The translations under genes were made by a program, and so were the position numbers. Positions 12,398 to 64,000 of a DNA stretch of 64,000 nucleotides are shown here, one piece after another (the stretch's first letter is position 1; each line of letters begins with the position of its first letter). Source of the stretch: Mobula hypostoma (taxonomy: Eukaryota). The stretch spans positions 15,066,001 through 15,130,000 of the forward strand of contig NC_086097.1 of NCBI RefSeq assembly GCF_963921235.1. The letters run 5' to 3'. The notes beneath the pieces are model-generated. The model saw nothing but the letters and a program-made list of their open reading frames with translations, did not search any database and was not told the DNA's origin.

Positions 12398-13143
12398 ACA
12401 ATGAAAGTTACTTCATTTTACACTTAGCCAGTGTGTATTAACTTACCTGTGTGGTCAGCATCAGAAATTGTAGACACTCATTGATCTTTCTGTTTCTGCA
12501 TCCCTGTTACTATTGCATCAGTATTTCTTGGATCTATATTCTTCCAATCAAGTTGTTGGAAATTAAATTTAACCTGCCATATGCCCTCCCATTTCAGCAG
12601 TCTACTGTTCTTTGGATGCTACATATTATTCTTCTAGTTTCCTGCATTGTCTGAGTTGTGTTTTCTGCAGCACTTTAACGAAGCCTATTGTATCTAGATC
12701 ATTAATTAGGCCCTCTCGGTTTTAGCTAAATAACTGGTCTATGTGAACTAGTTATCAAGTATAATTTGTTTTCAGAAGACTAGAATTTATCTCGAAAATA
12801 GTTTTGAATTGTTAGACGGCTCTAAGTACTTAATTTTATTTTCCTGATTTGGGCATTCATGTTAGCTGAAGGTGACCCTCAAGCCAATCTCTGACCTTTT
12901 TCTTTCTATCAATTTCCTCATCTCTATTTCATCCACCCAAATCCTTGAAGATAATGGATTTCATGCCAACAGCCCACTGATGACGCATTGCAATTGCCTC
13001 TAAAATGCTGCTCCTTGGTGTATGAGGATCCTCTGGTTATTAGGCATACTATCTGCACTGTTCCCTTATAATGTGTTTGTGTGTGCTTGTGCCTCTGTAC
13101 TTGTTAATATCTAAAGATAAAATTTGCCTCTTTTAACTTCCAG

Positions 13144-13739
13144 AGCGCAAGCCATCAATAAGTACAGGGACCACCATTATAGAAAGTGAACCACCTTCTA
13201 CAGGAAACTCCTCTGAAGTGGCCAAAGCCACCATCCCGCCACCTCTTCTTCCTCCTACTGCACACCAACAGCCACAGATGCCCCAGCGACCTCCACCGTC
13301 TGCCGCCTATATCATGGGAATGTCAACAACTAGCTCTTACATGTCTGGGGAAGGTTTCCAGAGCTTACAATCAATGATGAAGACTGATGGACCTTCCTAT
13401 GGAAGCATACCATCCTATGGACCACCAACTCATGTTCCTTACCACCCGCATGTTTATCCTAATCCATCTGTACCTCCACCCACTACTTATCCACCTAATA
13501 TTCCTCCTCCTACTCCAGGATATCCTCCACCAGGGTACAATCCTACATTTTTGCCCCCTCCTCGGATTCCACCTGCCCACACGGTGCCACCTCCTCCAGG
13601 ACTGGGTCTTCCGCCGACCAGCTACCCTCCCCCTACAGTGCCACCTGGGGGTCAACCTCCTGGGCCTCCACCACCGCCGCCGCCACCACCACCAGGGCTA
13701 CCACCTGTAGGTGGCTTGACACGAGGTTGGCTGAGGTAG
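13144..13739 (+). CDS. CCNK: Cyclin K terminal coding exon, proline-rich C-terminus
   Basis: Acceptor aacttccag|. Reads (E)[10 protein letters not shown]...[32 protein letters not shown]...[12 protein letters not shown] then TAG. In frame with ORF 13218-13739. Confidence 0.96.
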
Positions 13740-20019: not shown

Positions 20020-20850
20020 TCCAAAGTAAATTTATTACCAAAATATGTATCATCATATATGACCCTGACTTTCATTTTATTGTGGGTATTCACAGCAAAT
20101 ACAAAGAAACACAATAGAATTAATGAAAACATAGCAAATATGGACAAATGACTGATGTGCAAAAGATAACAAAACTGCAAAATACAAAAAAAGAGAATAA
20201 GTATCAAGAACATGAGTTATAAAGTCCTTAAAAGTGAGTACATGGGTTGTGGAATCAGTTCAGTGTTGGGATGAGGGTAGTTATCCCGTGGTTCAAGAGC
20301 CAGGTAGTTGAGGTATTATAACCGTGGTGTGGGGCGCGAAATTCCTGTACCACCTTCCTGATGGCAGCAGTGAGAAGAGCACATGGTGCCTTCCTGTGAC
20401 AGCTCTTCGTATATGTGCTCAATAGTGGGGAGGGTTTTAGCTGTGATGGACTGGACTATATTCACTTTTTTTTGTAGACGTTTCCATACCAGGCCATCAT
20501 GCAAATCTATAGAAGTTTGTCAAAGTTAGATAACGTGCCCAATCTGTGCAAACTTCTAAGAAAGTAGAGGTGCTGCCGTGTGTTGCGTGCTGGACCCAGG
20601 ACATATCCTCTGTATTGATAATACCAAGGAAGTTAAAGTTACCTTCCTTCTCAATATCAGATACCCCGATGAGGGCTAGCACATGGACTTCGGGTTTCCT
20701 CCTGTAATAATGAGCTCTGGTTTTGCTAGCATTCAATGAGAGGTTGTTGGTATGGCACCACTCAGCCAGATTTTCAATCTCCCTCCGCCTTGTTAATTTG
20801 TCACCACCTTTGATTTGGCCAACAACAGTGGTGTCATCAGCAAACTTTAA
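20020..20850 (-). mobile_element. Rex1/Babar-like LINE fragment with 3' tail
   Basis: Reverse strand has KFADDTTVVG (about 20820-20850), an FNFLGI motif and an aataaatttactttg tail. Confidence 0.75.
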
Positions 20851-21554
20851 ATATATGACATTGCTGTACTTGTGTTTCTTGTATTATTTAATTATTTTAA
20901 AATATTTTTTTCTGCATCCAGCTTTAATGAATCTCTGTTTCTCAGCAAACCTAGAACCAATGTGGTTTGTATAGGATCTGCTGTTCCAGAAGTGGACCCA
21001 GTGATCTAGGAGTCTCAAGGCCCTTCCTCCTGTAACTGTCTTCACTAATGCATCCATCTGCACTATCCTCCCATTCCTACACTCGCTAGACCAAGCCAGA
21101 TTTAATCATTTATGGGTAATATTTTTAGTTATTATGTCAGATTCAAAATCAAGTTTATTATCACTAACATGTTGTTCTGTGGCAGCGATAGTGCAAGACA
21201 TAAAACTTTCTTCCCCCAGAATAATCGGATCAACTATTCTAGTTACCCTTCCCACCCCCACCCCCTCCATTTATCGCTCCTGTCACTACACTGCACTGTG
21301 GACACTCTAAACCACATTTTATAATGTGGTTTCAAAAATAAATAAATGGTGCAAAAGTCAAACAAAGAAGTAGTTTTCATAGGTTTATGGATTCAGAAAT
21401 CCGATGGCAAAGTGGAAGAAGCTGTTCCTGCTTCCACCTGCAGAGGGCCACCCTCCCTTCTACCCATGTCATTTTCGCCAACATATTTCACAAATTCTGG
21501 CTGTTTGTTCCCACCCCACCAGCGCCTTGATCCTTGAAATTTCTGCTGTTAGCT

Positions 21555-21888: not shown

Positions 21889-22087
21889 ACAACACATAAA
21901 ATGCTGGAAAACCTAGGCTGGTCAGGTAGTATCTGTGGAGGAGAATAAGTAATTGACGTTTCAGGCCGAGACCCTTCATCATCAGGACTGTTTATTCCCC
22001 TCCATAGATTCTGTCTGAGTTGCTAAGTTCCTCCAGCATTTTGTGTGCATTGCTCGGGATTTCCAGCAATTGCAGAATCTCCTGTTT
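21889..22087. mobile_element. Fold-back Penelope-like terminal-repeat insertion
   Basis: 12-bp TSD ATACTTTATTCT (21877-21888 and 22088-22099), inverted arms, and a hammerhead-like core on the minus strand. Confidence 0.8.
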
Positions 22088-22964
22088 ATACTTTATTCTG
22101 CATTCTGTTTCCTTTTTACTACCTTAATGTACTTGTGTATGGAATGATTTGTCTGGAAGGCACGCAAGTGAGAACTTTCCACTGTGTTTCAGTACGTGTG
22201 ACAATTATAGACCAGTACTAATGGTTGATTAGTAGGAACACGAGCTGCTGCAGATGCTGGGTATCCAGAGTAACACACACAAAATGGTGGAGAAACTCAG
22301 CAGATCTGGGCAGCACCTAGGAAAATGACTTACAGTCAATGTTTCGAGCTGAGGCCCTTCATCAGGGCTGGGAAGGAAGAAGGAAGAAGTGACGGGAACA
22401 CTTGTCTTCCAGCCTAACTGTTAGATCAATTATCTTCATATCTTCCTCGGCCTCTCTCTGAACATGGGCATTATCTGTGACTCCATGGTCTGTAGAAATA
22501 GAGGTTCCACCTTCATCACTATTCAGTGGTAAATATAGTACTACTGGAATTTGTTTTTGGAAAGCACTGATTTGCAGGAATTAAAGAGATGAAAGTAATG
22601 TCCTGCGCTGTTTGATTGTATGAATCTGATGCAGTTCCAGCTACTGTGTTTCTTCCTGATCTCTGGCATTTGGAGTTTGATTATTTCAGCAAACACTGGT
22701 AGAACCAATGCAATCCATTCAAAGGAACAGCAAAATCCATCCCCAGTAAATCCATCTGACTCACCTCTAGCCCAACACCACCAGAAGCAAATGAAATATA
22801 CTGCCAGCGACCTGGAGGAAAACAGCAAGTTGATATAAGCTATTTATGCTCTCCTTTATCAGCCTTTTGCTTTTGAAGAATTTCTGACTAGGTTTAAAAT
22901 ACTAGTTGGTTGGTAAATGGGAAATGATCTATATGCTCTCAGGGTGCTTTGTAATGTGAACATG

Positions 22965-39860: not shown

Positions 39861-40088
<228 letters not shown>

Positions 40089-41009
40089 TCAAAGCTGACT
40101 GGCTGTCTTCCACCTCTCTTCCCAACTATCTTTTACCCCCTTCCGAGCCACTAACCCCTTGCTGGAAGAGAATTCCAGTGGGTTTGTGTTTCTCCAGTAA
40201 ATGCAGAGATGTTTCCCCTTACAGGTGAGTGTAGGGCAGGGCTTAATTACAGCATAAGGAATCATCAGATGAGGAGGAATTTCTTCTCTCAGAGGGTATT
40301 TGGAATTCTCTGGTCCTGAGAGTGGTAGGTATTCAGCCTGGTGATGTGACTGGAATTAGAGGTCAGAGGTTAAGGCTGAAAGGTGAGATATTTGAGGGGG
40401 AACTTCTTCACTCAGAGGGTAGTACGAGAGCGGAATGAGCTGCCAGCAGGAGTGGAAGATGTGGGTTCGATTGTGACATTTAAGAGAGGTTTGGTAGGTA
40501 TATGGTTGGGAGGGGTAAGAGAGGATGTGGTCTGGGAGCAGGTACAGAACTGTGTAAAGCTCTTAGGCACATATATATATAGCTGGAGTATCCAATACTG
40601 TTGCACAGTACTGTAGCAATTTTATGTACTGCACTATACTGCTGGCGCAAAAAAAAACAACAAATTTCATGACATACATGAGGTGAGTGATGATAAACCT
40701 GATTCTGATATGGGTTTCTATTGTAGACTGAGAGTGGGAAGGGGGCAGGGAGAGGTTGGGAAAAGGGGAAGAGAGAGGGGAGGGTGTGGGAAACAACAGA
40801 GAGAAGTCCTGTAATGATCAATAAACCAACTGTTTGGAAACAAATGATGTTGGTTGGTGTCTGGCCATAAACAGTCAATGTTTTGGGCTGAGACCCTTCC
40901 TCTGGACTGGAATCCGGGGGGGTGAGGGGAAGTAGTATAAAGCTAGAAGATGCTTCAACCCAGAATAATCACGATTCTGTACAATAGAGTAAAATGGATG
41001 ATAGCAAGT

Positions 41010-41700
41010 CAGAAACAATGAGAGATTCTGCAGATGCTGGAAATCTGAAGCAACACACTCAAAATGCTGGAGGAACTTGGCAGATTGGCCAGCATCCATG
41101 GAAATCAATAAACGATTGTTGTTTCAGGCTGAGACCCTCCTTCAGGTCTGGAAAGGAAGGGGGAAGACACCAAAATAAGAAGGTGGGGAGAGGGGAAGGA
41201 AGATAGCTAGAAGGTAAACACAAGGTACCCTGCAGATGCTGGGTTCAAAGCAACACGCACAACACGCTGGAGGAACTCAGCAGGTCGGGCAGCATCCGTG
41301 GAAATGTTTCGGGCCGAGACCCTTTGTTAGGACACTAGAAGGTGACAGGTGAATTCAGGTGGGCAGGAAAGGTAAGGGGCTAGAGAGGAAGAAATCTGAT
41401 AGGAGAGGAGAGTGGACCACAGGAGAACAGCAGGACCAAGGGGGTATTGATAGCCAGGTGAGAAGGGTAAGAGGCCAGAGTGGGGAATAGAAGGGGGGGG
41501 GGGATGTTTTTTTTACCTGAAGGAGAATCGATAGTTATGTCATCTAGTTGGAGGCTACCCAGACAGAATAGCAGGGGTTCCTCCTCCAGCCTGAGAGTGA
41601 CCTCATCATGGAATAAGAGGAGGCCATGGATTAACATGTCAGAATGGGAATGGGAATCAGAATTAAAATGCTTGGCCACAGGAAGTTTTGCTTTTGGCAG
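41010..41700 (-). mobile_element. Penelope-like element 3' part (GIY-YIG endonuclease C-terminus plus terminal repeat)
   Basis: ORF 41380-41679 reads AKHFNSDSHSHSDMLIHGL...RLEEEPLLFCLGSLQLD, resembling the PLE GIY-YIG C-terminus. Contains a nested insertion at 41216-41334. Confidence 0.75.
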
Positions 41701-42251
41701 GTGGAGCAGAGGAACGGAGATAGCAAATCATTTCATGCCTCTTCTAATTTTACTGATTTCCAGGGATGTAAACAATGGAAGAGATGATAAACTACTTTGG
41801 GCAGAGAGCAAAACCGACCATCTCTTGCACCACAATGGTTTTGTCTCTAACTAGGTTTTAGTTTGTCTTGTTTTATACACTCTTCTTTTTCTTTTCACTG
41901 TTTTGTATAACTTACATATAATCTATATTTCTGTATGTTGTCTGAACCTGCACATGTCTTTCATTGCACATGTACCTTACAATTAATGTACAAAGTCAAA
42001 ATTCTCCTGTTATAGCGTAAAATCAGGAGATATTCAGTAGGTCAGGCCATATCTATGGGAAGAGAAACAGACTTGATGTTTCAGATCCAAGACCCTTCGT
42101 CAGACTTTTTATATTCTCCTTTAGCTCAGTCCCTTGCTTCCTAATGGTAGTTTCACAGTTTGTATTTTCGATGTAGGACAAATATTGAAGCCAACATGAA
42201 TGGTAGTTAACAGATATTCAGTTACAGTTTCCTGCCTTGTTACCCACACTA

Positions 42252-42467
<216 letters not shown>

Positions 42468-43399
42468 CTAAATGTAAACAGATAGGGTCTTGTTTCTTAA
42501 AACTAAGGCATGCATTTTCTCCATTCTCAGCATGGTTCATGTTTACTCAGGTGTTTAATTGACTGAGTGTGACGAGCTGAGCCTCGAGGACCAATGAGAG
42601 GCAGTAAGAACATGATGTCGAGACCAATTCACTCTTGATACTACATTAGTTGTTTAGAGAGGAGGAAGAGATATTAGATAGAAAAGGGAGCCTGGTTTTT
42701 ATCACTGTTCCATGTTTTCAATTGACCACAGTCCCCCATTTCCACTGTGATTCCATGGCAAGATTCCAGACAATCTAATGAACTCTGAATGAAGGGTAGT
42801 TTTTGATGAAGGGTCTCGGCCTGAATTATCAACTATTTGTTCCCCTCCTTAGAGGCTACCTGACTCGCCGAGTTCCTCCAGCATTTTGTGTGCTTTGCTC
42901 AAGATTTCCAGCTTCTGCAGCACCTCTTGTGTTCCAGATACTCTGTCTGAATGGCTCTTCCTTATGACAACAAGCCTGATCTTCATTCAGGAATAACATG
43001 TCCTAGAGTTTAGTTTTTTCCTTATGGCGTAGGAGGCCATTTGGCCCAATGAGCCAATGCTGACTCACAGTGCAATCCCTTTCATAAGTACAGTAGCTGA
43101 AGAAGTTGGATTTGTTTTTGTTGGACGTCTTTAGGGGCATTCTTATTGAAATGCTGTATCTGCAGCTTAAGGAGGCTTGATACCGTAGATGTTGAGATGT
43201 TTCACAAGTGGGCAAATCTCAAACTAGGGGACACAGTTACAAGATAAATGTGGCGGACACTTATAGCTAAAACTAACTGTGTACGAATTTCTTCTTGCAG
43301 AGGCTGCCGAACCTCTTAAATTCTCTGCCGTTGAAAGGGTGGCTTATTGTAAAGGTTAGATCACCATATAACTATCTACAGTGGACAATTAACCTAGCG

Positions 43400-43735
43400 A
43401 CATACACAAAGTGCCAGAGGAGCTCAGCACGTCAGGCAGCATCTATGGAAATAAATAAACAGTCACTGTTTTGGGACCCTTCTTCTGGACTGAGAAGTTA
43501 AGGGGAAGATGCCAGAATGAAAAGGTCTGGAGGAGGGGAAAGAGGCTAGATGGAAGGTGATAGGTGAAGCCAGGTGGGTTGGAAAATGTCAAGGGCTGGA
43601 GAAGAAGATATCTGATAGGAGAAGAGAGTGGACCTTAGGAGAAAGGGAAGGAGGAGGGGATCCAAGCAGAAGTAACAGATGGACAGGTGAGAAGAGGTAA
43701 AAGGTTAGAGTGGAGAACTGAGGGGAGGAGGAAAT
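43400..43735 (-). mobile_element. Penelope-like terminal repeat fragment
   Basis: Similar to 41040-41500 and 52420-52760. Confidence 0.7.
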
Positions 43736-44054
43736 TAGCCCATTAACCCTTGTGTTAACCAGAGCACCCAGAGGAAACACATGCAACGCTCTCCCCCCCC
43801 ACCCCCGCACAGATAGTGCCAGGGTTCAGGAATTAATCTGATTGATGGCACTGTCGAGGCAGCAGTTTCGCTAGTTGTAGCACACCTCTACCAGAGCCAT
43901 GCCACAGTGCTGCCCAATCTTACCAGTTTTGAGATAGGATTAGATGCAATTACTTTGTGAATGGGCAATTTGAATGCTTAGCAACCAGCCAGACCTGCAG
44001 GATTTCAAACGGTGTATTTCTGATTTCTTGTGAAGATAAACTAGTATATGCCAA

Positions 44055-44310
44055 TTTATTTATTTAGATACAGCGCAGAATAGGCCCTCCCAGCCCTTCG
44101 AGCTACGCCACCCAGCAGCCCCTGATCTAATCCTGACCTAATCATGGGACGATTTACAATGACCAATTAACCCACCAACCGGTACATCTTTGGACTGTGG
44201 AAGGAAACCCACGTGGACGCGGGGAGAATGTACAGACTCCTTACAGGCAGTGGTGGGAATTGAGCCCATTTCTCCTGTATGGTAAAACGTTATGCTAACC
44301 ACTATGCTAT
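44055..44310 (-). mobile_element. V-SINE (HE1-like)
   Basis: Reverse orientation, same family as 37380-37640. Confidence 0.75.
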
Positions 44311-45451
44311 GAGAGCTGTTACCAAGGCAGCAAACTATTTTCCAGGAATATTCCATGTTTATAGAATTCAAATGAGGAAAAATACCAATAAATCTCTCAA
44401 TTGCACAGAAGAGAGAAAAAAAAACTTAATTGCATCTTTCTGATGGAAATTTCAACATAAATCGCTGCTGTGAACGTAAATCTGTTGGATGTCGTTTGAG
44501 TGGAATTACTACCAGGATAATATCAATCAAATCCATCTTGCGAGTCATGGGCTGACAAATCTCTAGGTGTACAACCCCCATTCATGACTGAATGGCCCCA
44601 TTGTAAATCTGCTTATCAAAGTACTGCCTGACAAAAATCCCTGCATTTCTTAACGATAATGCAATACAGCGAAATGGATTCATTCAGTGAGTATAAAACA
44701 GTCGGCCCATTAAATCCTGACAGATTATCTGCCTTTGTGATTTGGCACAGTAAAGATGGGGGGAGGAGGCAAGATAATAAAGATAAACTGGCATATCAAA
44801 CCGCTTACAAAGTTACATCACAACCACAATGGATGAGAAGAGCTGATGAGTGACAAGAGACATTGTCACTGCAAATGGAGGAGACAAAAAACTGTGAGGT
44901 ATTTGAAACAAAAGGAAGAGAAAATGCTGGAAGAACCCAGCAAGTCAGTCAGCTTCTGCAGAAAGAGAAATAGTCAAAGTTTCATACCTACTAACAGTAC
45001 ATCAGAACTGAGGTTTTGGATTTATAAAACTTTTGCAGCTTTTTTGATCCTAATTTCCTGTATTGATGAAGACTACTTGAAAGTTCAGTCATCCACTTCC
45101 CCATCTTTAGGCCAACCCATGATGGACCTCCGTTGAGAGGAAATCTATCGAAGTGAAAAGCTGGGTGAGGAAAAGGGGGAAAACGGGCAAGAGAAAAGGA
45201 TAGCTTTGTGAACAAAGATCAAAATGCCCTTAGCTATGATTGAAAGGATGTGATTTGTGACGGATAATTGCTGGGATGGTTTTGTTGTGTAAGACTGATC
45301 AAGTGTGAAGGGTAATTAAGGAGAAAGGGAGGACAAGGAGGAGAAGGGCTGGTGGGAGTAACAGGGAAAAGTACTGAGGACCTGGAGATAAAACAAGGAA
45401 TGTGAAGGAGAGAAGGAAACAAAGGAAGAGTATTAGGTGGTGAGAACAAAA

Positions 45452-45818
45452 TCCATAAGACACAGGAGCAGAATTAGGTCGTCTGGCCCATCGAGTCTGC
45501 TCTGCCATTTCAACATGGCTGTTCCATTTTACCTCTCAGCTCCAGTCTCCTGCCTTCTTCCCGTATCCCTTCTTGCTCTGACCAGTCAAGAATCTACCAA
45601 TCTCTGCCTTAAATAGACATAAAGTCTTGACCTCCACAGCTGCTTGTGGCAACGAATTCCACAGAATCACCACTCCCTGGCTAAAGAATTTCCACCTCAT
45701 CTCCATATTAAGTGGACGCCCCTCTATTCTGAGGCTGTGTCCTCTGGCCCTGGACTCTCCCACGATAGAAAACATCCTTTCCACATCCACCCTGTCGAAG
45801 CCTTTCAGCATTTGGTAA
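45452..45818 (-). mobile_element. CR1 LINE 3' fragment
   Basis: ORF 45536-45844 reads KGFDRVDVERMF...RGHSLRI...FFSQGVVILWNSLP. Confidence 0.85.
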
Positions 45819-46179
45819 GGTTCCAAAGGTTTGGAATGGAGCAAGAGGAGGAACAGAAAAGGCAGATGGAAGGGGTAGAGCAGGGATTCCCAGCCTGGAC
45901 CCCTTGCTTAGTGGTATTGGTCCATGGCACAAAAAAGGTTGAGAACCCCTGGAAGAAGAAAAGAGGGGAAAAGAATAACACATGGCTTAGGCCATGTCAC
46001 AGCTTTCTCCTGGAACAGGAACTAAAGATTCCTGATAATGGAGACTCAACGATAGGAGGTCCCTGGAACTTCTATTTGGCGGTCAGTTTCGATGCAATGT
46101 AATTTTAGGAAAGACATTTCTTTTGATGAATAAGCACATCTTTTTTTGTGTGTAAAACAAAATGTCTGCTGGATTTTAC

Positions 46180-46281
46180 CTTCATTGCATGCACTACAGC
46201 TTCAGGCTTTTGGGCACTGGGAATGTACCCAGGTGGCAACGCTGGATTGTTGGGGTCTCCAGTCACCAGCCGAGGGAGGCC
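46180..46281 (-). CDS. CCDC85C: CCDC85C coding exon (102 nt)
   Basis: Minus-strand acceptor tttaaacag| and donor |gtaaaa. Reads GLPRLVTGDPNNPALPPGYIPSAQKPEAVVHAMK, containing the CCDC85-family KPEAVVHAMK motif. I could not find upstream exons in the window. Confidence 0.92.
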
Positions 46282-47589
46282 CTGTTTAAAGAACACAAGA
46301 GTGGTGAGGACACAGCGCCTTCAAAAGGGATACCTGGGAAGTGGATGTGGCATTACATTTGAGGGAACGGGCAAAGAGGTAGAAAAAGGAAGTGGGGAGG
46401 TGGTGAGAGGGGAAGACAGGAGGGAATGGGACAGGTGGGAAGAGAAGTGAAGAAAGGGGAAGGAGAAAGAAGGGAAGACAAGAGAGAGAATGGAGAGAGG
46501 GAACACTGGGGCAGTGGGGAAATAAAATGATAGAAATTGATAGGAGATGGAACAGGCAAGGAGAGGAGAGAGATGGGATGAGAGAAGCAACACAAAAGGG
46601 GAAAGTGGAGAGGATGGTATAAGAATTGTGCACTGCAAACCCAAGAAAGGGAAACGGGTGAAAATGCACATCATTGAACAGCACTGTGGGATATCCAGCC
46701 ATTTGTCAAGCACAAGATGACAGCAGAGTGAGGAAACATTAGATGCTGCGAGTCCATACCAGCTGTATACAAGAGCATCCAAACTAGTCCCACTCTGCTG
46801 CCCTGCATTTTTTTTTTCCCTTTCAGCTACTTTTCCAGCTTCCTTTTCAACACAATTAAATCTGCCTTAATTACCAGTTCTGGCAATGTACTCCTGACCC
46901 AAGTCACACACAGGGTAAGGAGGTCTCTCTATATTTAATCGCCTGAGATTCTTCTGTCAATCACCTTCATGTTCTCTTCATGACTTTTCCACCAATGGAA
47001 ATAATTCTCCTACATCTATTCCAGGGGTTCCCAACCTTTTTTATGCCATGAACACCTACCATTAACTGAGTGCTCCATGGACCTCAGGATGATCCATTCA
47101 GTCTGCACTCAATATATCTTAAATATCTCTTTCCACCACAACTACCATAATTTGGGGTCGTTCTTGAGCAGAGGAGCATAGCATTACAACCTTCTTTGTT
47201 TCAAGAAGAATCGCTGTTAATCCACAAAAATAAAATCATTCCACCCTTGACCCTGTTTTCTGATATCTCTTCAGCTCCCTTTCTAAAGCCTTTACATCTC
47301 TCCTAATCTCACAGTGATTAGTACGATGCTATTATAGCTCAGGCCATTGGAGTTCGGAATTCAATTCCAGTGTGCTCTGTAAGGAATTTGTGCGTTCTCC
47401 CCGTGAATTTTCTCCGGGTGCTCCCCTTTACTTGCATTGGTCATTGTAACTTGACCTGTGATTAGGCCAGGGTTGAATAGATGGGTTGCTGCGCGGCGCA
47501 GTACGTTGGGCCGGGAGAGCCTGTTCCATGCTACATCTCTAAATAAATTCATGCATAAATAAATAAACCTGATTCTGATTTATATATAT

Positions 47590-48865
47590 AATCAGAATTG
47601 GGTTTATTATCACCAGCATATGCTGTGAAATTTGCAATGCGTAATAAATATGGAAAATAAGTCAATAAATGCCTACATTGAAATCAATCAATCAGTAAAT
47701 AAATGTGTCTGTATATGTGTAATAAATAGTGAAATTAAAAATAATGCAAAAACAGAAATAATTTTAAAAATTGAAGTAGTGTTCATGAGTTCAATGTCCA
47801 TTTAGGAATTGGATGGCAGAGGGGAAGAAACTGTTTGTGAATCGCTGAGTGTGTGCCTTCGGACTACTGTACCTCCTACCTGATGGTAACAATGAGAAAA
47901 GGGCATGCCCTGGAAATGGGGGCCCTTAATAATGGACGCCACCTTTCTGAGACACCGCTTGACGGAGATGACTTGGATACTATGGAGGCTATTGCCCATG
48001 ATGGAGCTGACTAATCTTACAACTTGCTGTAGCTTTTTTCAACTCTATGCAGTAACTCTATCCCTATCCCCCAATACCAGATAGTGAAGCAGTCTGTCAG
48101 AATGCTCTCCATGTACATCTGTAGAAACTTGTGAGTGTCTTTAGTGACATAGTAAATCTCCTCAAACGCCTAATGAAATATAGCCACTGCCGTGACTTGT
48201 TTGTATTTGCATTGATATGTTGGATCCAGGTTAGATTTTCAGAGATATTGACACCCAAGAACTTGAAATTGCTCACTCTTTCCACTTCTATGAGGACTGG
48301 TGTGTGTTCCCTCACCTTACCCTTTCTAAAATCCACAATCAACTCTTTGGTCTTACTGACAGTGAGTGCAAGGTTATTGCTGTGACAAAACTCAACTAGC
48401 TGGCGTACCTCGCTCCTGTACGCCCTCTCGAACCTATCTGAGATTCTGCCAACAATGGTTATATCATCAACAAATTTATAAGTGGCATTTGAGCTATGCC
48501 TAGCTATACAGTCATGGGTATAGAGGATTAGAGCAGTGGGCTAAGCACATATCCTCGAGGTGCGCCAGTATTGATTATCAGCGAGTAGATGTTATTACCA
48601 ATCTGCACAGGTTGTGGTATTCTGGTTAAGAAGTCAAGGATCCAATTGCAGATGGAGGTACAGAGGTCCAGGTTCTGTAGCTTATCGATCAGGATTGTGA
48701 GAACGATGGTGTTAAACACTGAGCTATAGTCAATGAACAGCAACCTGATGTAGGTATTTGTATTGTCCAGGTGACCTAAGGCCGTGTGAAGAGCCACTGA
48801 GATTGCATCAGCCACAGACCTAATGTGCCGATAGGCAAAATGCAGTGGGTGCAGGTCCTTGCTAA
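47590..48865 (-). mobile_element. Rex1/Babar-like LINE (RT portion to 3' tail)
   Basis: Encodes FAYRHIRSVADAI, IRLLFIDYSSVFNTI, NTGAPRGYVLSPLL, IVDFRK and FKFLGVNI. Confidence 0.88.
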
Positions 48866-49704
48866 GGCAGAGAGGTAGATAGACAGATATAAATAAATAA
48901 ATAGATAGATGGATAGATAGATAAACAGACAAGCAAACAAATGAATGATCAAATAAATAGTGTTATCTAATGCTCCAGTATAGCTATGCCTGAGTTTTAC
49001 AAAGGATCATAGTGATTTCCTGGCTTCTTAACCACATCCACAACTTTCCTTGTTTCTTTAATGAATTATGTTGTTATATCATCAAATCTCCCTGTCCTTG
49101 TGAAATACCCACTCTAGTTTATTTCTAGTTTATATCATCTTTTCTCATGCTTTCTCCCAAAACATAACACTTCTCAATTTTCAGTGTTAAATTTCATCCA
49201 CCACATATTTGCTTTTTTCACCAACCTGTCCACATTTCCTTTCAGGTAGTTCTGCTATAACATGCATTTTCATAATGAGAATTGGGTATAACATAATTAA
49301 TGGATTAGGGGACAAAACTTGCATTACGCTGGTTAAACTGGTTAAACACAATCAGGAACGTTCTAGTGTAGTAAGGTTTCTCAGAAACTCAAAAGTTCAA
49401 AATGCGAAGAAAATCTATTATCAGAATGCATACATGTCACCACATACTGCCATGAGGTTCATTTTCTTGTGAATGTTTAGAGTAAAAGAGCATTGAGCGA
49501 GTAACTCGGCGTTGTAAAAAACAGACAAATGTTATAGAAACAGCAAGGTTGCTGCCTAATGCGCCACAAAGCACAGAAAGCAACAATTGAGAGTAAAATA
49601 AAGAAGTACAATAGAATCAATGAAAAACTACACACAAAGACCAATAAGCAAAAGACAAACTGTGCAAATACACAAAAAGAAAATAAATAACTGAATACAC
49701 AAAC

Positions 49705-50390
49705 ATGGAGAGGAGACAGGCTAACCCCTATTGACATCAATGGATCTGTGGTTGAGATGGTGAACATCTTTAAATTCCTCGGCATACACATCACCGAGGA
49801 GCTCACGTGGTCTGTACGCACCAGCTGTGTGGTGAAAAAGGCACAACAGCGCCTCTTTCACCTCAGACGGTTGAGGAAGTTTGGTATGGGCCCCCAAATC
49901 CTAAGAACTTTCTACAGGGGCACAATTGAGAGCATCCTGACTGGCTGCATCACTGTCTGGTATGGGAACTGTACCTCCCTTAATCGCAGGAGTCTGCAGA
50001 GAGTGGTGCGGACAGCCCAGCGCATCTGTAGTTGTGAACTTCTTACTTTCCAGGATATTTACAAAGATAGGTGTGTAAAAAGGGCCTGAAGGATCACTGG
50101 GGACCCAAGTCACCCCAACCACAAACTATTCCAGCTGCTACCATCCGGGAAACGGTACCGCAGCATAAAAGCCAGGACCAACAGGCTCCAGGGCTGCCTC
50201 TTCCACCAGGCCATCAGACTGATTAACTCACGCTGATATAATTGTATTTCTATGCTATATTGACTGTCCAGTTGTACATATTTATTAAAATTACTATAAA
50301 TTGCACATTGCACATTTAGACAGAGACATAACATAAAGATTTTTACTCCACATCTATGTGAAGGATGTAAGAAATAAGTTCAATTCAAAT
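49705..50390 (+). mobile_element. Relatively intact 5'-truncated Rex1/Babar-like LINE
   Basis: Encodes FKFLGIHITEELTW...KAQQRLFHLRRLRKF...FYRGTIESILTGCITVWYG. One in-frame TGA, then continues to LLPSGKRYRSIKARTNRL. Confidence 0.88.
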
Positions 50391-51221
50391 CAAATATATA
50401 AATATAAACTGATAACATGAATTGTGAATCGATAGGTTGTGTTCAGTGATGGGATGAGTGAAGTTATCCACACTGGTTCAGCAGCCTGATGGTTGAGGAG
50501 TAATAACTGTTTCTGAATCTGGTGGTGTGGGACCTGAAGGCTCCTGTACCTCCTTTCCAATGGCAGCAGTGAGATAGGAGTATGGCCTGGATGGTTTGCA
50601 TTCTTGACGACATGTATTGCTTTCTTGCGGCAGTGCTTCTTGTAGGTATCTCCATCACGATTGCCTTAGAGCAGGGCCAACTGTATTAACATCTTCATTT
50701 CCACAATACCTCCAAGTTTTGTGCCATCTGCAAGTTTGAAAACTGTGCCCCGTGTACACCCAAGTTCACGTCTGTAATATAAAGCATTGTATATGGGACT
50801 GAAAACAGGAGAATGCCACAGCACACGTCCTCCTGTTCAAAAAGCAACCTTTCATTATCATGACAATCTTTTACCGTTCCTTTCACTAAATCCCTGTGGT
50901 GAAAACAGAATTTGCAGATCAACATGTGATGGACGTATGCAAGCTTACCCAACTCCCTGTGGAAACTAGTAACCTTGATGCAAATGGTGTAAATTAACTT
51001 TTGCAGACAGTGTGTTGAAGACGAAGGAACAGTTGTGGCAATGGTTATGTTCAAGTAGTCAGAATCAGATTTAATATCACTGGCATAGTTGTTGTCTTTG
51101 CGGCAGCAATAGAACGCAATACATAATAATAGAAAACAAACTGTAAATTACATTAAGCTTATACAGTCTATATTAAATAGTTAAATAAATAAGTGGTTTA
51201 AAAATAGAAATAAAAAAGGTC

Positions 51222-51459
51222 AAACAACAGGAATTCTGCAGATGCTGGAAATTCAAGCAACACACATCAAAGTTGCTGGTGAACGCAGCAGGCCAAGCAG
51301 CATCTATAGGAAGAGGCGCAGTCGACGCTTCAGGCCGAGACCCTTCGTCAGGACCCTTCGTCCTGACGAAGGGTCTCGGCCTGAAACGTCGACTGCGCCT
51401 CTTCCTATAGATACTGCTTGGCCTGCTGCGTTCACCAGCAACTTTGATGTGTGTTGTTT
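51222..51459. mobile_element. Palindromic Penelope-derived insertion
   Basis: 13-bp TSD AATAAAAAAGGTC (51209-51221 and 51460-51472). 97-bp inverted arms at 51258-51354 and 51360-51456. Confidence 0.88.
51360..51393 (+). ncRNA. Minimal type-I hammerhead ribozyme motif
   Basis: GUC-CUGACGA-AGG[GUCUCGG]CCU-GAAA-CG-UC-GAC. All core residues present, 3-bp stem I, predicted cleavage after C51390. Confidence 0.65.
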
Positions 51460-52419
51460 AATAAAAAAGGTCGTGCGGTTGTGTTCATGGGTTCAATGTC
51501 CGTTTAGGAATCTGACGGCAGAGGGGAGGAAGCTGTTCCTGAATCATTGAGTGTGTGCCTTCAGGCTTCTGTACCTCCTCCTTGATGGTAACAGTGAGAA
51601 CAAGACATCTCCTGGGTGATGGGAGACCTTGATGATGGACGCTGCCTTTTTGAAGCATCGCTCCTTGAAAATGTCCTGGATAGTGTGGAGGCTAGTGGCA
51701 ATGGTAGAGCTTATTTCAAACCTGGTTTCATTTAATTGTGGAGAAACTCACAGAGAAAAACGGACTTTTCCAGAACTTCATCATTTGACATCCAGACAGC
51801 TCACAGCAAGGAGAAATGAAACAATTTACTAATTAAACTATGAACTTGGCAAAGCAACCCAGTAATACCACACCAACCTTCAGGCTTTATTTGCTTCTAA
51901 TTTCAGCACACATGTCACTTCCAGAATGAGGAAAGACACGGAGTAAACATCAAGTAGGTTAAAACAGCCTGGAGGAATTAAGTCAGTGTGTTCTCCTCCC
52001 TCTTTGGGCAAACTAAACCTGCTCAGGCTGCACATTTTATGGGAGATAAAGTATTGTGACTTGAGATTTAGCTGGAATGGCTCAAAGCTATTGTTGGAAT
52101 AACATGCTAGCACAGAGCTTTTTTTAAATCATTTAGGAAGACTCCTTTCAGGTCAGTTGTGGGGAAATTTTCATTGACATAAGACCATAAGACATAGGAG
52201 TGCAGCATTAGGCCATTTGGCCCATTGAATCTGCTCCACCATTCAATCATGGCTGATATATTATCCCTCTCAACCCCATTCTCCTGCTTTCTCCTCATAC
52301 CTCCTTGGCAATCCTTTTAAATCGGGTGTTTCCAACCTTTTTCATGACATGGAGCCTTACCATTAACCAAGGGGTCTGTGGACCCCTGTTTAAAATCATT
52401 CCAAAAAAAACTTCGCAAA

Positions 52420-63006: not shown

Positions 63007-63938
63007 CAACACACATCAAAGTTGCTGGTGAATGCAGCAGGCCAGGCAGCATCTCTAGGAAGAGGTACAGTCGACGTTTCGGGCCGAGACCCTTCGTCAG
63101 GACTAACTGAAGGAAGAGCTAGTAAGAGATTTGAAAGTGGGGGGGGGGAGATCCAAAATGATAGGAGAAGACAGGAGGGGGAGGGATGGAGCCAAGAGCT
63201 GGACAGGTGATTGGCAAAAGGGATATGAGAGGATCATGGGACAGGAGGCCCAGGGAGAAGGAAAAGGGGGAAGGGGGGGGAACCCAGAGGATGGGCAAGG
63301 GGTATAGTCAGAGGGACAGAGGGAGAAAAAGGAGAGTGAGAGAAAGAATGTGTGTATATAAATAAATAACGGATGGGGTACGAGGGGGAGGTGGGGCATT
63401 AGTGGACATTAGAGAAAGATGAAGCCACAATCACGTTGGAGGAACAACACCTTATATTCCGTCTGGGTAGCCTCCAACCTGATGGCATGAACATTGACTT
63501 CTCTAACTTCCGCTAATGCCCCACCTCCCCCTCGTACCCCATCTTTTATTTTTATACACACATTCTTTCTCTCACTCTCCTTTTTCTCCCTCTGTCCCTT
63601 TTTCTATACACCCTTTGCCCATCCTCTGGGTTCCCCCCCCCTTTTCCTTCTCCCTGGGCCTCCTGTCCCATGATCCTCTCATATCCCTTTTGCCAATCAC
63701 CTGTCCAGCTTTTGGCTCCATCCCTCCCCCTCCTGTCTTCTCCTATCACTTTGGATCTCCCCCTCTCCCTCCCACTTTCAAAGCTCTTCCTTCAGTTAGT
63801 CCCGACGAAGAAGAGTCTCGGCCCGAAACGTCGACTGTACCTCTTCCTAGAGATGCTGCCTGGCCTGCTGCGTTCACCAGCAACTTTGATGTGTGTTGCT
63901 TGAATTTCCAGCATCTGCAGAATTCCTCGTGTTTACAT
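63007..63938. mobile_element. Penelope-like insertion with inverted terminal repeats
   Basis: 10-bp TSD TGTGACACTG (62997-63006 and 63939-63948). About 400-bp inverted arms. 63418-63516 encodes DEATITLEEQHLIFRLGSLQPDGMNIDFSNFR then a stop. Confidence 0.88.
63068..63105 (-). ncRNA. Minimal hammerhead ribozyme motif (extra-A variant)
   Basis: Minus strand reads UAGUC-CUGACGA-A-GGG[UCUCGG]CCC-GAAA-CG-UC-GACUG. Confidence 0.62.
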
Positions 63939-64000
63939 TGTGACACTGTAATTTCCTTTGGGATCAGTAAAGTATCTATCTATCTATCTACAGCTACAAG

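What the first reader, a model, noticed from the sequence alone, without database searches (positions are those of the whole stretch)
51209..51472. 238-bp fold-back insertion of two back-to-back hammerhead motifs with a 13-bp TSD
Seen: 97-bp arms (51258-51354 and 51360-51456) differ at only two positions around a 5-nt loop and are flanked by an exact AATAAAAAAGGTC duplication. The fold-back point lies just 5' of the ribozyme core, so each strand presents a hammerhead motif. The left-arm copy has GAAG instead of GAAA. There is no coding sequence. Inference: either a young non-autonomous, retrozyme-like or MITE-mimicking unit mobilised by the Penelope machinery, or a one-off inversion during target-primed reverse transcription. 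As RNA it would form a long hairpin that masks the ribozyme and could be an ADAR or Dicer substrate.
Basis: partly seen in the sequence, partly recalled or inferred. Interest (0 to 1): 0.7.

Follow-up and report, generated by a model that had tools for sequence, protein, structure and literature searches.

The report
Tiny two-armed Penelope retroelement insertion
This 238-base hairpin is real but ordinary: it consists of two short end-pieces of a Penelope-like jumping gene joined back to back inside a duplicated target site, likely left by one insertion event, and its two ribozyme motifs are predicted to be inactive.

Summary
Observation confirmed: 97-bp arms with two mismatches, a 5-nt loop, an exact 13-bp duplication and a 238-bp insert. 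Removing the insert restores an older host repeat.

Both arms are the last 100-133 bases of an abundant Penelope-like element (PLE) whose end repeat carries a minimal hammerhead. One arm has the known 30-40-nt tail and the other lacks it. Two other young insertions of this family in the window are also head-to-head with a duplication, but have different junctions. All 15 joints shown from public contigs are head-to-head with different breakpoints. This is the published PLE insertion pattern, not a retrozyme or MITE.

The loop is a slip copy of nearby element sequence, which points to templated end-joining or snap-back. The turn lies 30 nt upstream of the predicted cut site. It clips stem I, and one core is mutated, so both ribozymes are probably dead. 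The insert probably lies in a CCDC85C intron, so pre-mRNA would carry a 100-bp hairpin; editing was not tested. The copy number of this exact junction could not be measured. Already known; low interest.

The parts
51209..51221 (.). Left copy of the 13-bp target-site duplication
   Evidence: present once in the aligned site of 3 paralogous host-repeat copies
51222..51257 (-). PLE 3' 'tail' (33-36 nt), on this arm only; element sense is the minus strand here
   Evidence: alignment with sister copies; public contigs show family ends at 51221/51222 and 51256/51257 (table 7)
51258..51354 (-). Left arm: element positions 1-97, where position 1 is the G of the stem I 5' strand
51321..51354 (-). Minimal type I hammerhead motif with a GAAG core variant (51328) and a 4-bp stem I; sense to CCDC85C
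   Evidence: motif by pattern, no Rfam hit
51355..51359 (.). 5-nt loop; with its flanks it repeats the 11-mer at 51339-51349 (templated insertion plus 3-nt GAC/GTC microhomology)
   Evidence: 2 of 1024 5-mers would fit between GAC and GTC in the element
51360..51456 (+). Right arm: element positions 1-97, without the tail
51360..51393 (+). Minimal type I hammerhead motif with an intact core and a 3-bp stem I; predicted cut after 51390; antisense to CCDC85C
51457..51459 (+). TTT: either element positions 98-100 with one substitution, or a jump between the two similar element ends
51460..51472 (.). Right copy of the target-site duplication
   Evidence: X1 contig 51438-51506 with 0 differences at depth 11.5, against flank depth 11.7
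51060..51720 (.). Older dispersed host repeat (family not identified) into which the unit inserted
   Evidence: the rebuilt empty site aligns across the junction to 54826-54432, 47720-48008 and 26985-26587 at 72-75%
57665..57804 (.). Sister insertion: inverted arm (positions -2 to 47) joined to a direct arm (69 to 133, with tail), 12-14-bp duplication, different junction
62997..63948 (.). Sister insertion: inverted arm of about 400 bp without tail, joined to a direct arm carrying the endonuclease C-terminus, 3' UTR, hammerhead and tail; 10-bp exact duplication; different junction
39864..46287 (-). Context: last three coding exons of CCDC85C (46287-46177, 42368-42261, about 39950-39864); earlier exons were not found up to 64000, so the insert is probably intronic

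Best explanation
It is a non-coding 238-bp insert made of two short 3' ends of a Penelope-like retroelement joined head to head inside a 13-bp target-site duplication, likely produced in one integration event and likely immobile since. Inferred steps: the element's GIY-YIG endonuclease nicks both strands of an A-rich target 13 bp apart. Each nick primes reverse transcription at one of the element's two start sites about 35 nt apart, giving one arm with the tail and one without. Both cDNAs stop at the 5' edge of the hammerhead. One 3' end ending in GAC slips or snaps back, copies 8 nt, and the new GTC end anneals to the other GAC end (templated microhomology end-joining), which leaves the 5-nt loop. 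Fill-in gives the duplication. The hammerheads are passengers from the end repeat and are predicted inactive: opposite strands, clipped stem I, one core mutation, and burial in the hairpin. Shown: anatomy, family identity, one-sided tail, varied junctions in sister copies, and the repeat structure of the loop. Inferred: the enzymology, the order of events, the inactivity and the immobility.
For: Anatomy. Empty-site continuity with 3 paralogues of the host repeat. Link to a PLE ORF: the sister copy at 63418-63934 has a 32-aa frame ending upstream of the same hammerhead and tail. It is 24/32 identical to P0001 (weak Pfam GIY-YIG hit, E=0.002, below cut-off) and 22/27 identical to P0003, whose Atlas neighbours carry HTH_animal, GIY-YIG and RVT_1. 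All 3 window loci with matches of 45 nt or more at 90% or better are two-armed, duplication-flanked and tailed on one arm, with three different junctions. At 57665-57804 the arms do not overlap, so two separately primed cDNAs are required there; 15 of 15 displayed joints run from left arm to right arm with distinct breakpoints, across organisms A, B and C. Family ends with long AT-rich loose flanks cluster at 51221/51222 (138 and 74 contigs in X1) and 51256 (58). Loop templating fits 2 of 1024 5-mers. Literature: inverted pLTR plus optional 31-bp tail plus TSD, and palindromes at inverted junctions (PMC3846280); the same layout in PMC8557442; both strands nicked and extended, with two RT starts bounding the tail (PMC11167929); opposite-strand pairs of minimal hammerheads from truncated PLEs (PMC4209133).
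Against: The copy number of this exact junction was not measured: no genome is held, and table 8 hid 149,239 records. Some other junction contigs had depth 3-15 times the single-copy flank (for example 94, 109, and 182 over two contigs, against 11.7), so repeated junctions are not excluded, though the tool warns that depth is not copy number. Table 5 shows only the 15 best supported of 509 joints, and 4 of the 12 rows of table 5c are go-back (tandem-like) joints, so not every product is inverted. Both arms stop at the same base and share variants that differ from the sister copies, which fold-back copying explains more simply than two independent cDNAs. Pfam gave no hit for P0003 or for the window's endonuclease remnants, and no full ORF lies in the window.
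Confidence: 0.85

Rival explanations
1. Same PLE origin but a different route: one cDNA was made from the tailed end, slipped, folded back on its own GAC, and was copied back over itself (self-priming or snap-back), then was resolved at the no-tail position. This is an alternative for the joining step inside the best explanation, not for the identity; its confidence is conditional on the PLE origin.
For: Exact symmetry at position 1 and shared variants in both arms; the loop structure; self-priming was proposed for junction palindromes (PMC3846280); cDNA snap-back junctions are seen with R2 protein (PMC11371274, passages).
Against: The right arm ends at the family-wide second start site (table 7), as expected if it was primed there. 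The sister locus at 57665-57804 has disjoint arms that fold-back cannot make.
Confidence: 0.35
2. A small palindromic non-autonomous unit that is copied as a whole in trans by PLE proteins, so that this junction recurs at many sites.
For: It has two outward-facing priming ends; pLTR sequences are enough for mobilisation in trans (PMC3846280); a few other junction contigs are deeper than single copy.
Against: The junction occurs once in 64 kb even with 3 mismatches allowed. Sister insertions and all 15 displayed joints differ. A 100-bp duplex would mask the binding and priming sites (inference).
Confidence: 0.07
3. A retrozyme-like element that self-cleaves and circularises.
For: It carries type I hammerhead cores; animal retrozymes derive from PLE pLTRs (bioRxiv 10.64898/2026.07.22.740005, abstract and introduction).
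Against: No same-sense tandem, so one transcript holds one motif plus its complement. Minimal motifs showed no cleavage as monomers (PMC4209133). Stem I is clipped and one core is mutated, and the hairpin at -209 kcal/mol buries both.
Confidence: 0.02
4. Assembly or library fold-back artefact.
For: Near-perfect palindrome; no loop-spanning record was displayed.
Against: The arms differ at 2-3 sites; there is a one-sided tail and an exact duplication; the host repeat resumes. An X1 contig carries 22 nt of the right arm, the duplication and 34 nt of flank with 0 differences at single-copy depth. That is under the tool's 31-letter rule for the arm boundary, and X1 may be the assembly's own sample.
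Confidence: 0.02
5. The hairpin has been retained as a functional intronic duplex (editing or splicing modulator) of CCDC85C.
For: Probable intronic position; on the gene's strand both mismatches are G.U pairs, giving an unbroken helix.
Against: It is young (2 of 97 differences between arms), sits inside another repeat, and no conservation was shown. Intact sense-strand motifs remain at 57721 and 63100 in the same region, so the GAAG change needs no selective explanation.
Confidence: 0.04

Closest known systems
Inverted-pLTR insertions of endonuclease-bearing Penelope-like elements, e.g. Pen2a_Av and Pen2 of Adineta vaga (PMC3846280, passages; PMC8557442, passages)
   Same: Head-to-head inverted end repeats, a 30-40-bp tail on one end only, one TSD around the whole unit, palindromic junction, AT-rich target
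   Different: Here both arms are cut down to 100-133 bp with no ORF left, the junction is exactly symmetric, and the TSD is 13 bp against 8-10 bp in the rotifer examples
PAc (Poseidon of Anolis carolinensis) in vitro mechanism (PMC11167929, parts 1-2 of 4)
   Same: Nicking and extension of both strands, two RT start sites bounding the tail, hammerhead cleavage not needed for insertion
   Different: That paper does not reconstitute the inverted junction. The parent here looks Neptune-like (Cys-rich linker before GIY-YIG in P0003, read by eye), not Poseidon; no tree was built
Minimal type I hammerheads of metazoan PLEs (PMC4209133, parts 1-2 of 4)
   Same: Core boxes, no real helix III, an extra base before stem II, short stem I; opposite-strand pairs 100-700 bp apart were reported as truncated PLEs
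   Different: The two motifs abut; stem I is clipped by the junction; one core carries GAAG
Non-LTR (animal) retrozymes (PMC7229834, passages; bioRxiv 10.64898/2026.07.22.740005, part 1 of 5)
   Same: Small, non-coding, PLE-related, type I hammerhead, TSD longer than 4 bp
   Different: Retrozymes are same-sense tandem repeats that give circular RNA; this unit is inverted and cannot do so
Synthesis-dependent MMEJ and cDNA snap-back junctions (PMC5728401, passages; PMC11371274, passages)
   Same: A short insertion that becomes part of a longer direct or inverted repeat, plus microhomology
   Different: Inferred here from one junction; the enzyme is unknown

Membership tests
Endonuclease-bearing Penelope-like element insertion | Sequence is the end repeat of an element encoding RT plus GIY-YIG | tested here: met
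   Indirect: arms are 91-93% identical to the end of the sister copy whose upstream frame matches P0001 and P0003; Atlas neighbours carry GIY-YIG, HTH_animal and RVT_1. Pfam hits are below cut-off or absent
Endonuclease-bearing Penelope-like element insertion | Hammerhead motif in the pLTR | tested here: met
   Core boxes and stems found by pattern; no Rfam hit
Endonuclease-bearing Penelope-like element insertion | 30-40-nt tail on one end only | tested here: met
   33-36 nt on the left arm only; two end clusters about 35 nt apart in public contigs
Endonuclease-bearing Penelope-like element insertion | 5'-truncated inverted partner and a TSD around the whole unit | tested here: met
Endonuclease-bearing Penelope-like element insertion | Clade assignment (Neptune versus Poseidon) by RT phylogeny | not tested
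   No RT of this family in the window; only a Cys-rich linker seen by eye in P0003 (criterion from PMC8557442)
Non-LTR retrozyme | Two or more same-sense hammerheads in tandem repeats | tested here: not met
   The motifs are on opposite strands
Non-LTR retrozyme | Self-cleavage and circular RNA | not testable with these tools
   Needs RNA assays; folding predicts masking
MITE (definition recalled, no call) | Symmetric terminal inverted repeats of a DNA transposon at both ends | tested here: not met
   The ends differ by the 33-36-nt tail and are retroelement 3' ends
MITE (definition recalled, no call) | Many copies of uniform size and structure | tested here: inconclusive
   Junction seen once in the window and sister units differ; a genome-wide count was not possible
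Active hammerhead ribozyme | Intact core plus stable stems, or a same-sense dimer partner | tested here: not met
   In silico only: + copy has a 3-bp stem I; - copy has a GAAG core (conservation of that A is recalled); both are paired in the hairpin

The most novel reading that the evidence does not exclude
This exact palindromic junction recurs at unrelated sites with different duplications. That would make it a 238-bp, non-coding, two-ended PLE derivative that is re-mobilised as a unit from either strand, an inverted counterpart of retrozymes that mimics a MITE.
Probability: 0.07. Interest if true: 0.55.

Novelty: already known. Interest (0 to 1): 0.13.

Why it matters
As it stands it is a clean, very short example of a published PLE insertion pattern. 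Its modest value is as a footprint. How PLE inverted junctions form is still open (PMC8557442; PMC11167929), and this junction shows a templated 5-nt insertion with 3-nt microhomology at the 5' edge of the hammerhead. A genome-wide catalogue of such junctions in rays could separate two-ended priming from snap-back. Such insertions would also seed introns with long duplexes for RNA editing. If the junction proved to be amplified, it would be a new kind of non-autonomous PLE derivative.

Tried and rejected
The whole genome was not held, so there was no genome-wide junction count.

Rfam gave 0 matches at gathering level in the window. The 10 sub-threshold matches near the insert were hairpin look-alikes such as mir-3926, and were rejected.

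The junction 21-mer gave 0 hits in JGI metagenome contigs; this is uninformative for a fish genome. The search of earlier scan notes by sequence gave 0 look-alike windows; this is weak.

Run search: no RNA holder listed. X5 is only guessed to be RNA and covers the intronic flanks evenly, so it was not used for expression or editing. One search showed no empty-site joint for organisms B or C and no loop-spanning record, but its tables were cut (494 joints, 1,298 loose ends and 149,239 records hidden), so neither presence nor absence in relatives is known. I laid 4 of the 24 listed runs.

The pile-up of joints at 51359-51360 (7 of 15) is partly an artefact of the reference ending there and was not used as proof of a hot spot.

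Ribozyme cleavage as the cause of the turn was rejected, since the predicted cut lies 30 nt downstream. Selection against the sense-strand ribozyme was rejected, since intact sense motifs remain nearby.

The word-based protein search with the endonuclease remnant found nothing; phmmer found 39 hits. The RVT_1 hit of P0014 looks LINE-type and chimeric by eye and was not used as PLE evidence.

Pfam scans of 150 and 138 open frames (not all frames of 52 aa or more were scanned, and plus-strand frames below 28 kb were mostly omitted) found no host exon. The exons were found by reading translations and tblastn.

Literature searches returned no paper whose listing dealt with fold-back PLE insertions in rays or sharks; subscription papers and all supplements were unseen. 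PMC5785218 was not held.

Full report
1. Observation. The arms 51258-51354 and 51360-51456 differ at two pairs, the loop is CCTTC, the 13-mer is exact at 51209-51221 and 51460-51472, and the insert is 238 bp. The stretch folds at -209 kcal/mol, z -26.6, with 0 of 200 shuffles as stable. It is the only hairpin of this class in the window, and the terminal 13-mer match has p about 2.5e-6. The unit is not symmetric: 36 more bases of element lie on the left (51222-51257) and three (TTT) on the right. If TTT is counted as arm with one more mismatch, the arms are 100 bp at 97%. With the insert and one 13-mer removed, the site aligns across the join to three older copies of a host repeat at 72-75%, so this is an insertion with a true duplication.

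2. Setting. The genome is a cartilaginous fish. The exon at 42365-42261 is identical over 35 residues to CCDC85C of two rays. Three 3' exons of CCDC85C lie on the minus strand between 39864 and 46287, and the first 300 or so residues of the homologues are not found up to 64000. The insert therefore probably sits in a long intron; this is inferred, and no transcript was seen.

3. What the arms are. Both are the 3' end of an abundant repeat with a minimal type I hammerhead. The sister copy at 63418-63934 shows the order: end of a reading frame, a pyrimidine-rich UTR, the hammerhead, about 70 nt, then the tail. That frame is 24/32 identical to P0001 and 22/27 identical to P0003. P0001 has a sub-threshold GIY-YIG hit and P0003 has no Pfam hit, but the Atlas neighbours of P0003 carry HTH_animal, GIY-YIG and RVT_1. 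By eye P0003 has a Cys-rich linker before the nuclease motif, which PMC8557442 (passages) gives as a mark of Neptune and Nematis; the clade was not tested by a tree.

4. The family's habit. Three window loci match the arm at 90% or better over 45 nt or more. All three are head-to-head, duplication-flanked and tailed on one arm, and each has a different junction: symmetric here; positions -2 to 47 joined to 69-133 at 57665-57804; and about 400 bp joined to 517 bp at 62997-63948. An older pair at 21892-22087 has the same layout. Laying public contigs of four coded runs on 50760-51960 showed 15 of 509 joints, all from left arm to right arm with different breakpoints, in three organisms. Four of the 12 rows in table 5c were go-back, tandem-like joints. 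Family ends with long AT-rich loose flanks cluster at 51221/51222 and 51256/51257, about 35 nt apart. This matches the published pattern: inverted pLTR, optional 31-bp tail, TSD and junction palindromes (PMC3846280, passages); the same layout across PLE clades (PMC8557442, passages); nicking and extension of both strands with two RT starts bounding the tail, hammerhead cleavage not required (PMC11167929, parts 1-2 of 4); and opposite-strand pairs of minimal hammerheads ascribed to truncated PLEs (PMC4209133, parts 1-2 of 4).

5. The junction. Both arms stop at element position 1, inside the 5' strand of stem I and 30 nt upstream of the predicted cut, so self-cleavage does not explain the turn. 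The loop matches neither the normal upstream sequence nor its complement. With its flanks it repeats the 11-mer at 51339-51349, and only 2 of 1024 5-mers would fit this way (10 of 1024 under a looser rule). That is the pattern of loop-out or snap-back synthesis followed by 3-nt microhomology annealing (PMC5728401, passages); cDNA snap-back is also seen in R2-mediated insertions (PMC11371274, passages). Two routes give the same sequence. The first is two separately primed cDNAs joined end to end; it is favoured because the right arm ends at the family's second start site and the sister locus has disjoint arms. The second is one cDNA folding back on itself; it is favoured by the exact symmetry and the shared variants. 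I put these at roughly 60:35.

6. The ribozymes. Rfam does not recognise them. On + the core is intact but stem I has 3 bp; on - stem I has 4 bp with one G.U and the core reads GAAG; two sister copies have 5 and 6 bp. That the changed A is conserved is recalled: the review searched had no passage on it (PMC6765202). A minimal motif tested alone did not cleave (PMC4209133). A transcript of either strand holds one motif and its complement, fully paired. Retrozymes are defined by same-sense tandem units (PMC7229834, passages; bioRxiv 10.64898/2026.07.22.740005, part 1 of 5), so this is not one.

7. As RNA. On the CCDC85C strand both mismatches become G.U pairs and the predicted helix is unbroken. 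Editing by ADAR is plausible from general knowledge of long intronic duplexes, but nothing here tests it. Dicer access to an intronic nuclear hairpin is less likely (inference).

8. What stays open. The copy number of this junction: it occurs once in the window with up to 3 mismatches, no genome is held, and no loop-spanning record was displayed. Some other junction contigs were 3-15 times deeper than the single-copy flank, which keeps a small chance that junctions are amplified, although the tool warns that depth is not copy number. The right boundary is carried by one X1 contig at single-copy depth with 22 arm letters, short of the tool's 31-letter rule, and X1 may be the assembly's own sample. 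A second sample (X5) has a record with 14 arm letters. Presence in organisms B and C is undetermined. No supplements were read; those of PMC4209133 and PMC11167929 may hold closer examples.

9. Earlier scan notes describe many similar two-armed PLE insertions in this genome, and their follow-ups called them ordinary. They are AI notes and are treated as leads, not support.

10. Verdict. A real, young, very short head-to-head PLE insertion of a known pattern, most likely one event and now inert. Novelty: already known. Interest 0.13.

Noticed in passing
window, copies at 22368, 40907, 41148, 52517, 56738 and 63103 (all minus): The 5' edge of hammerhead stem I follows a pyrimidine tract and a YAG whose G is element position 1, which looks like a splice acceptor. 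PMC4209133 reports that the intron end maps to helix I in Drosophila virilis Penelope. This could bear on why 5' breakpoints fall at positions -2 to 1.
   Followed up: partly
run X5, joints 51340 to 51376 and 51244 to 51363: Two other head-to-head junctions have contig depth 1357 and 696 against 3.65 for the flank in a run guessed to be RNA; the first is near-symmetric. They could be hairpins in abundant transcripts, but the run type is a guess.
   Followed up: no
window 57665-57804: A 112-114-bp insertion with disjoint arms (-2 to 47 inverted, 69 to 133 direct), the geometry of LINE-1 twin priming (term recalled), with a 12-14-bp duplication.
   Followed up: partly
window 62997-63948: A two-armed insertion with the endonuclease C-terminus; the arms match at 376 of 391 aligned bases; the direct arm's hammerhead core is damaged.
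   Followed up: partly
window 13137-13739 (+): A proline-rich frame that looks like the last exon of cyclin K (name recalled, no call), tail to tail with CCDC85C.
   Followed up: no
window 20500-20883, 48100-48962, 49691-50086, 62000-62329: Fragments of other retroelements (RVT_1 and ALKBH8_N hits); about 41% of 40-64 kb is self-repeated within the window.
   Followed up: no
proteins P0007, P0009, P0033: Database proteins in which this PLE endonuclease end is fused to host domains (RecQ5/SRI, 7tm_1, DUF4518); probably mis-predicted exons.
   Followed up: no
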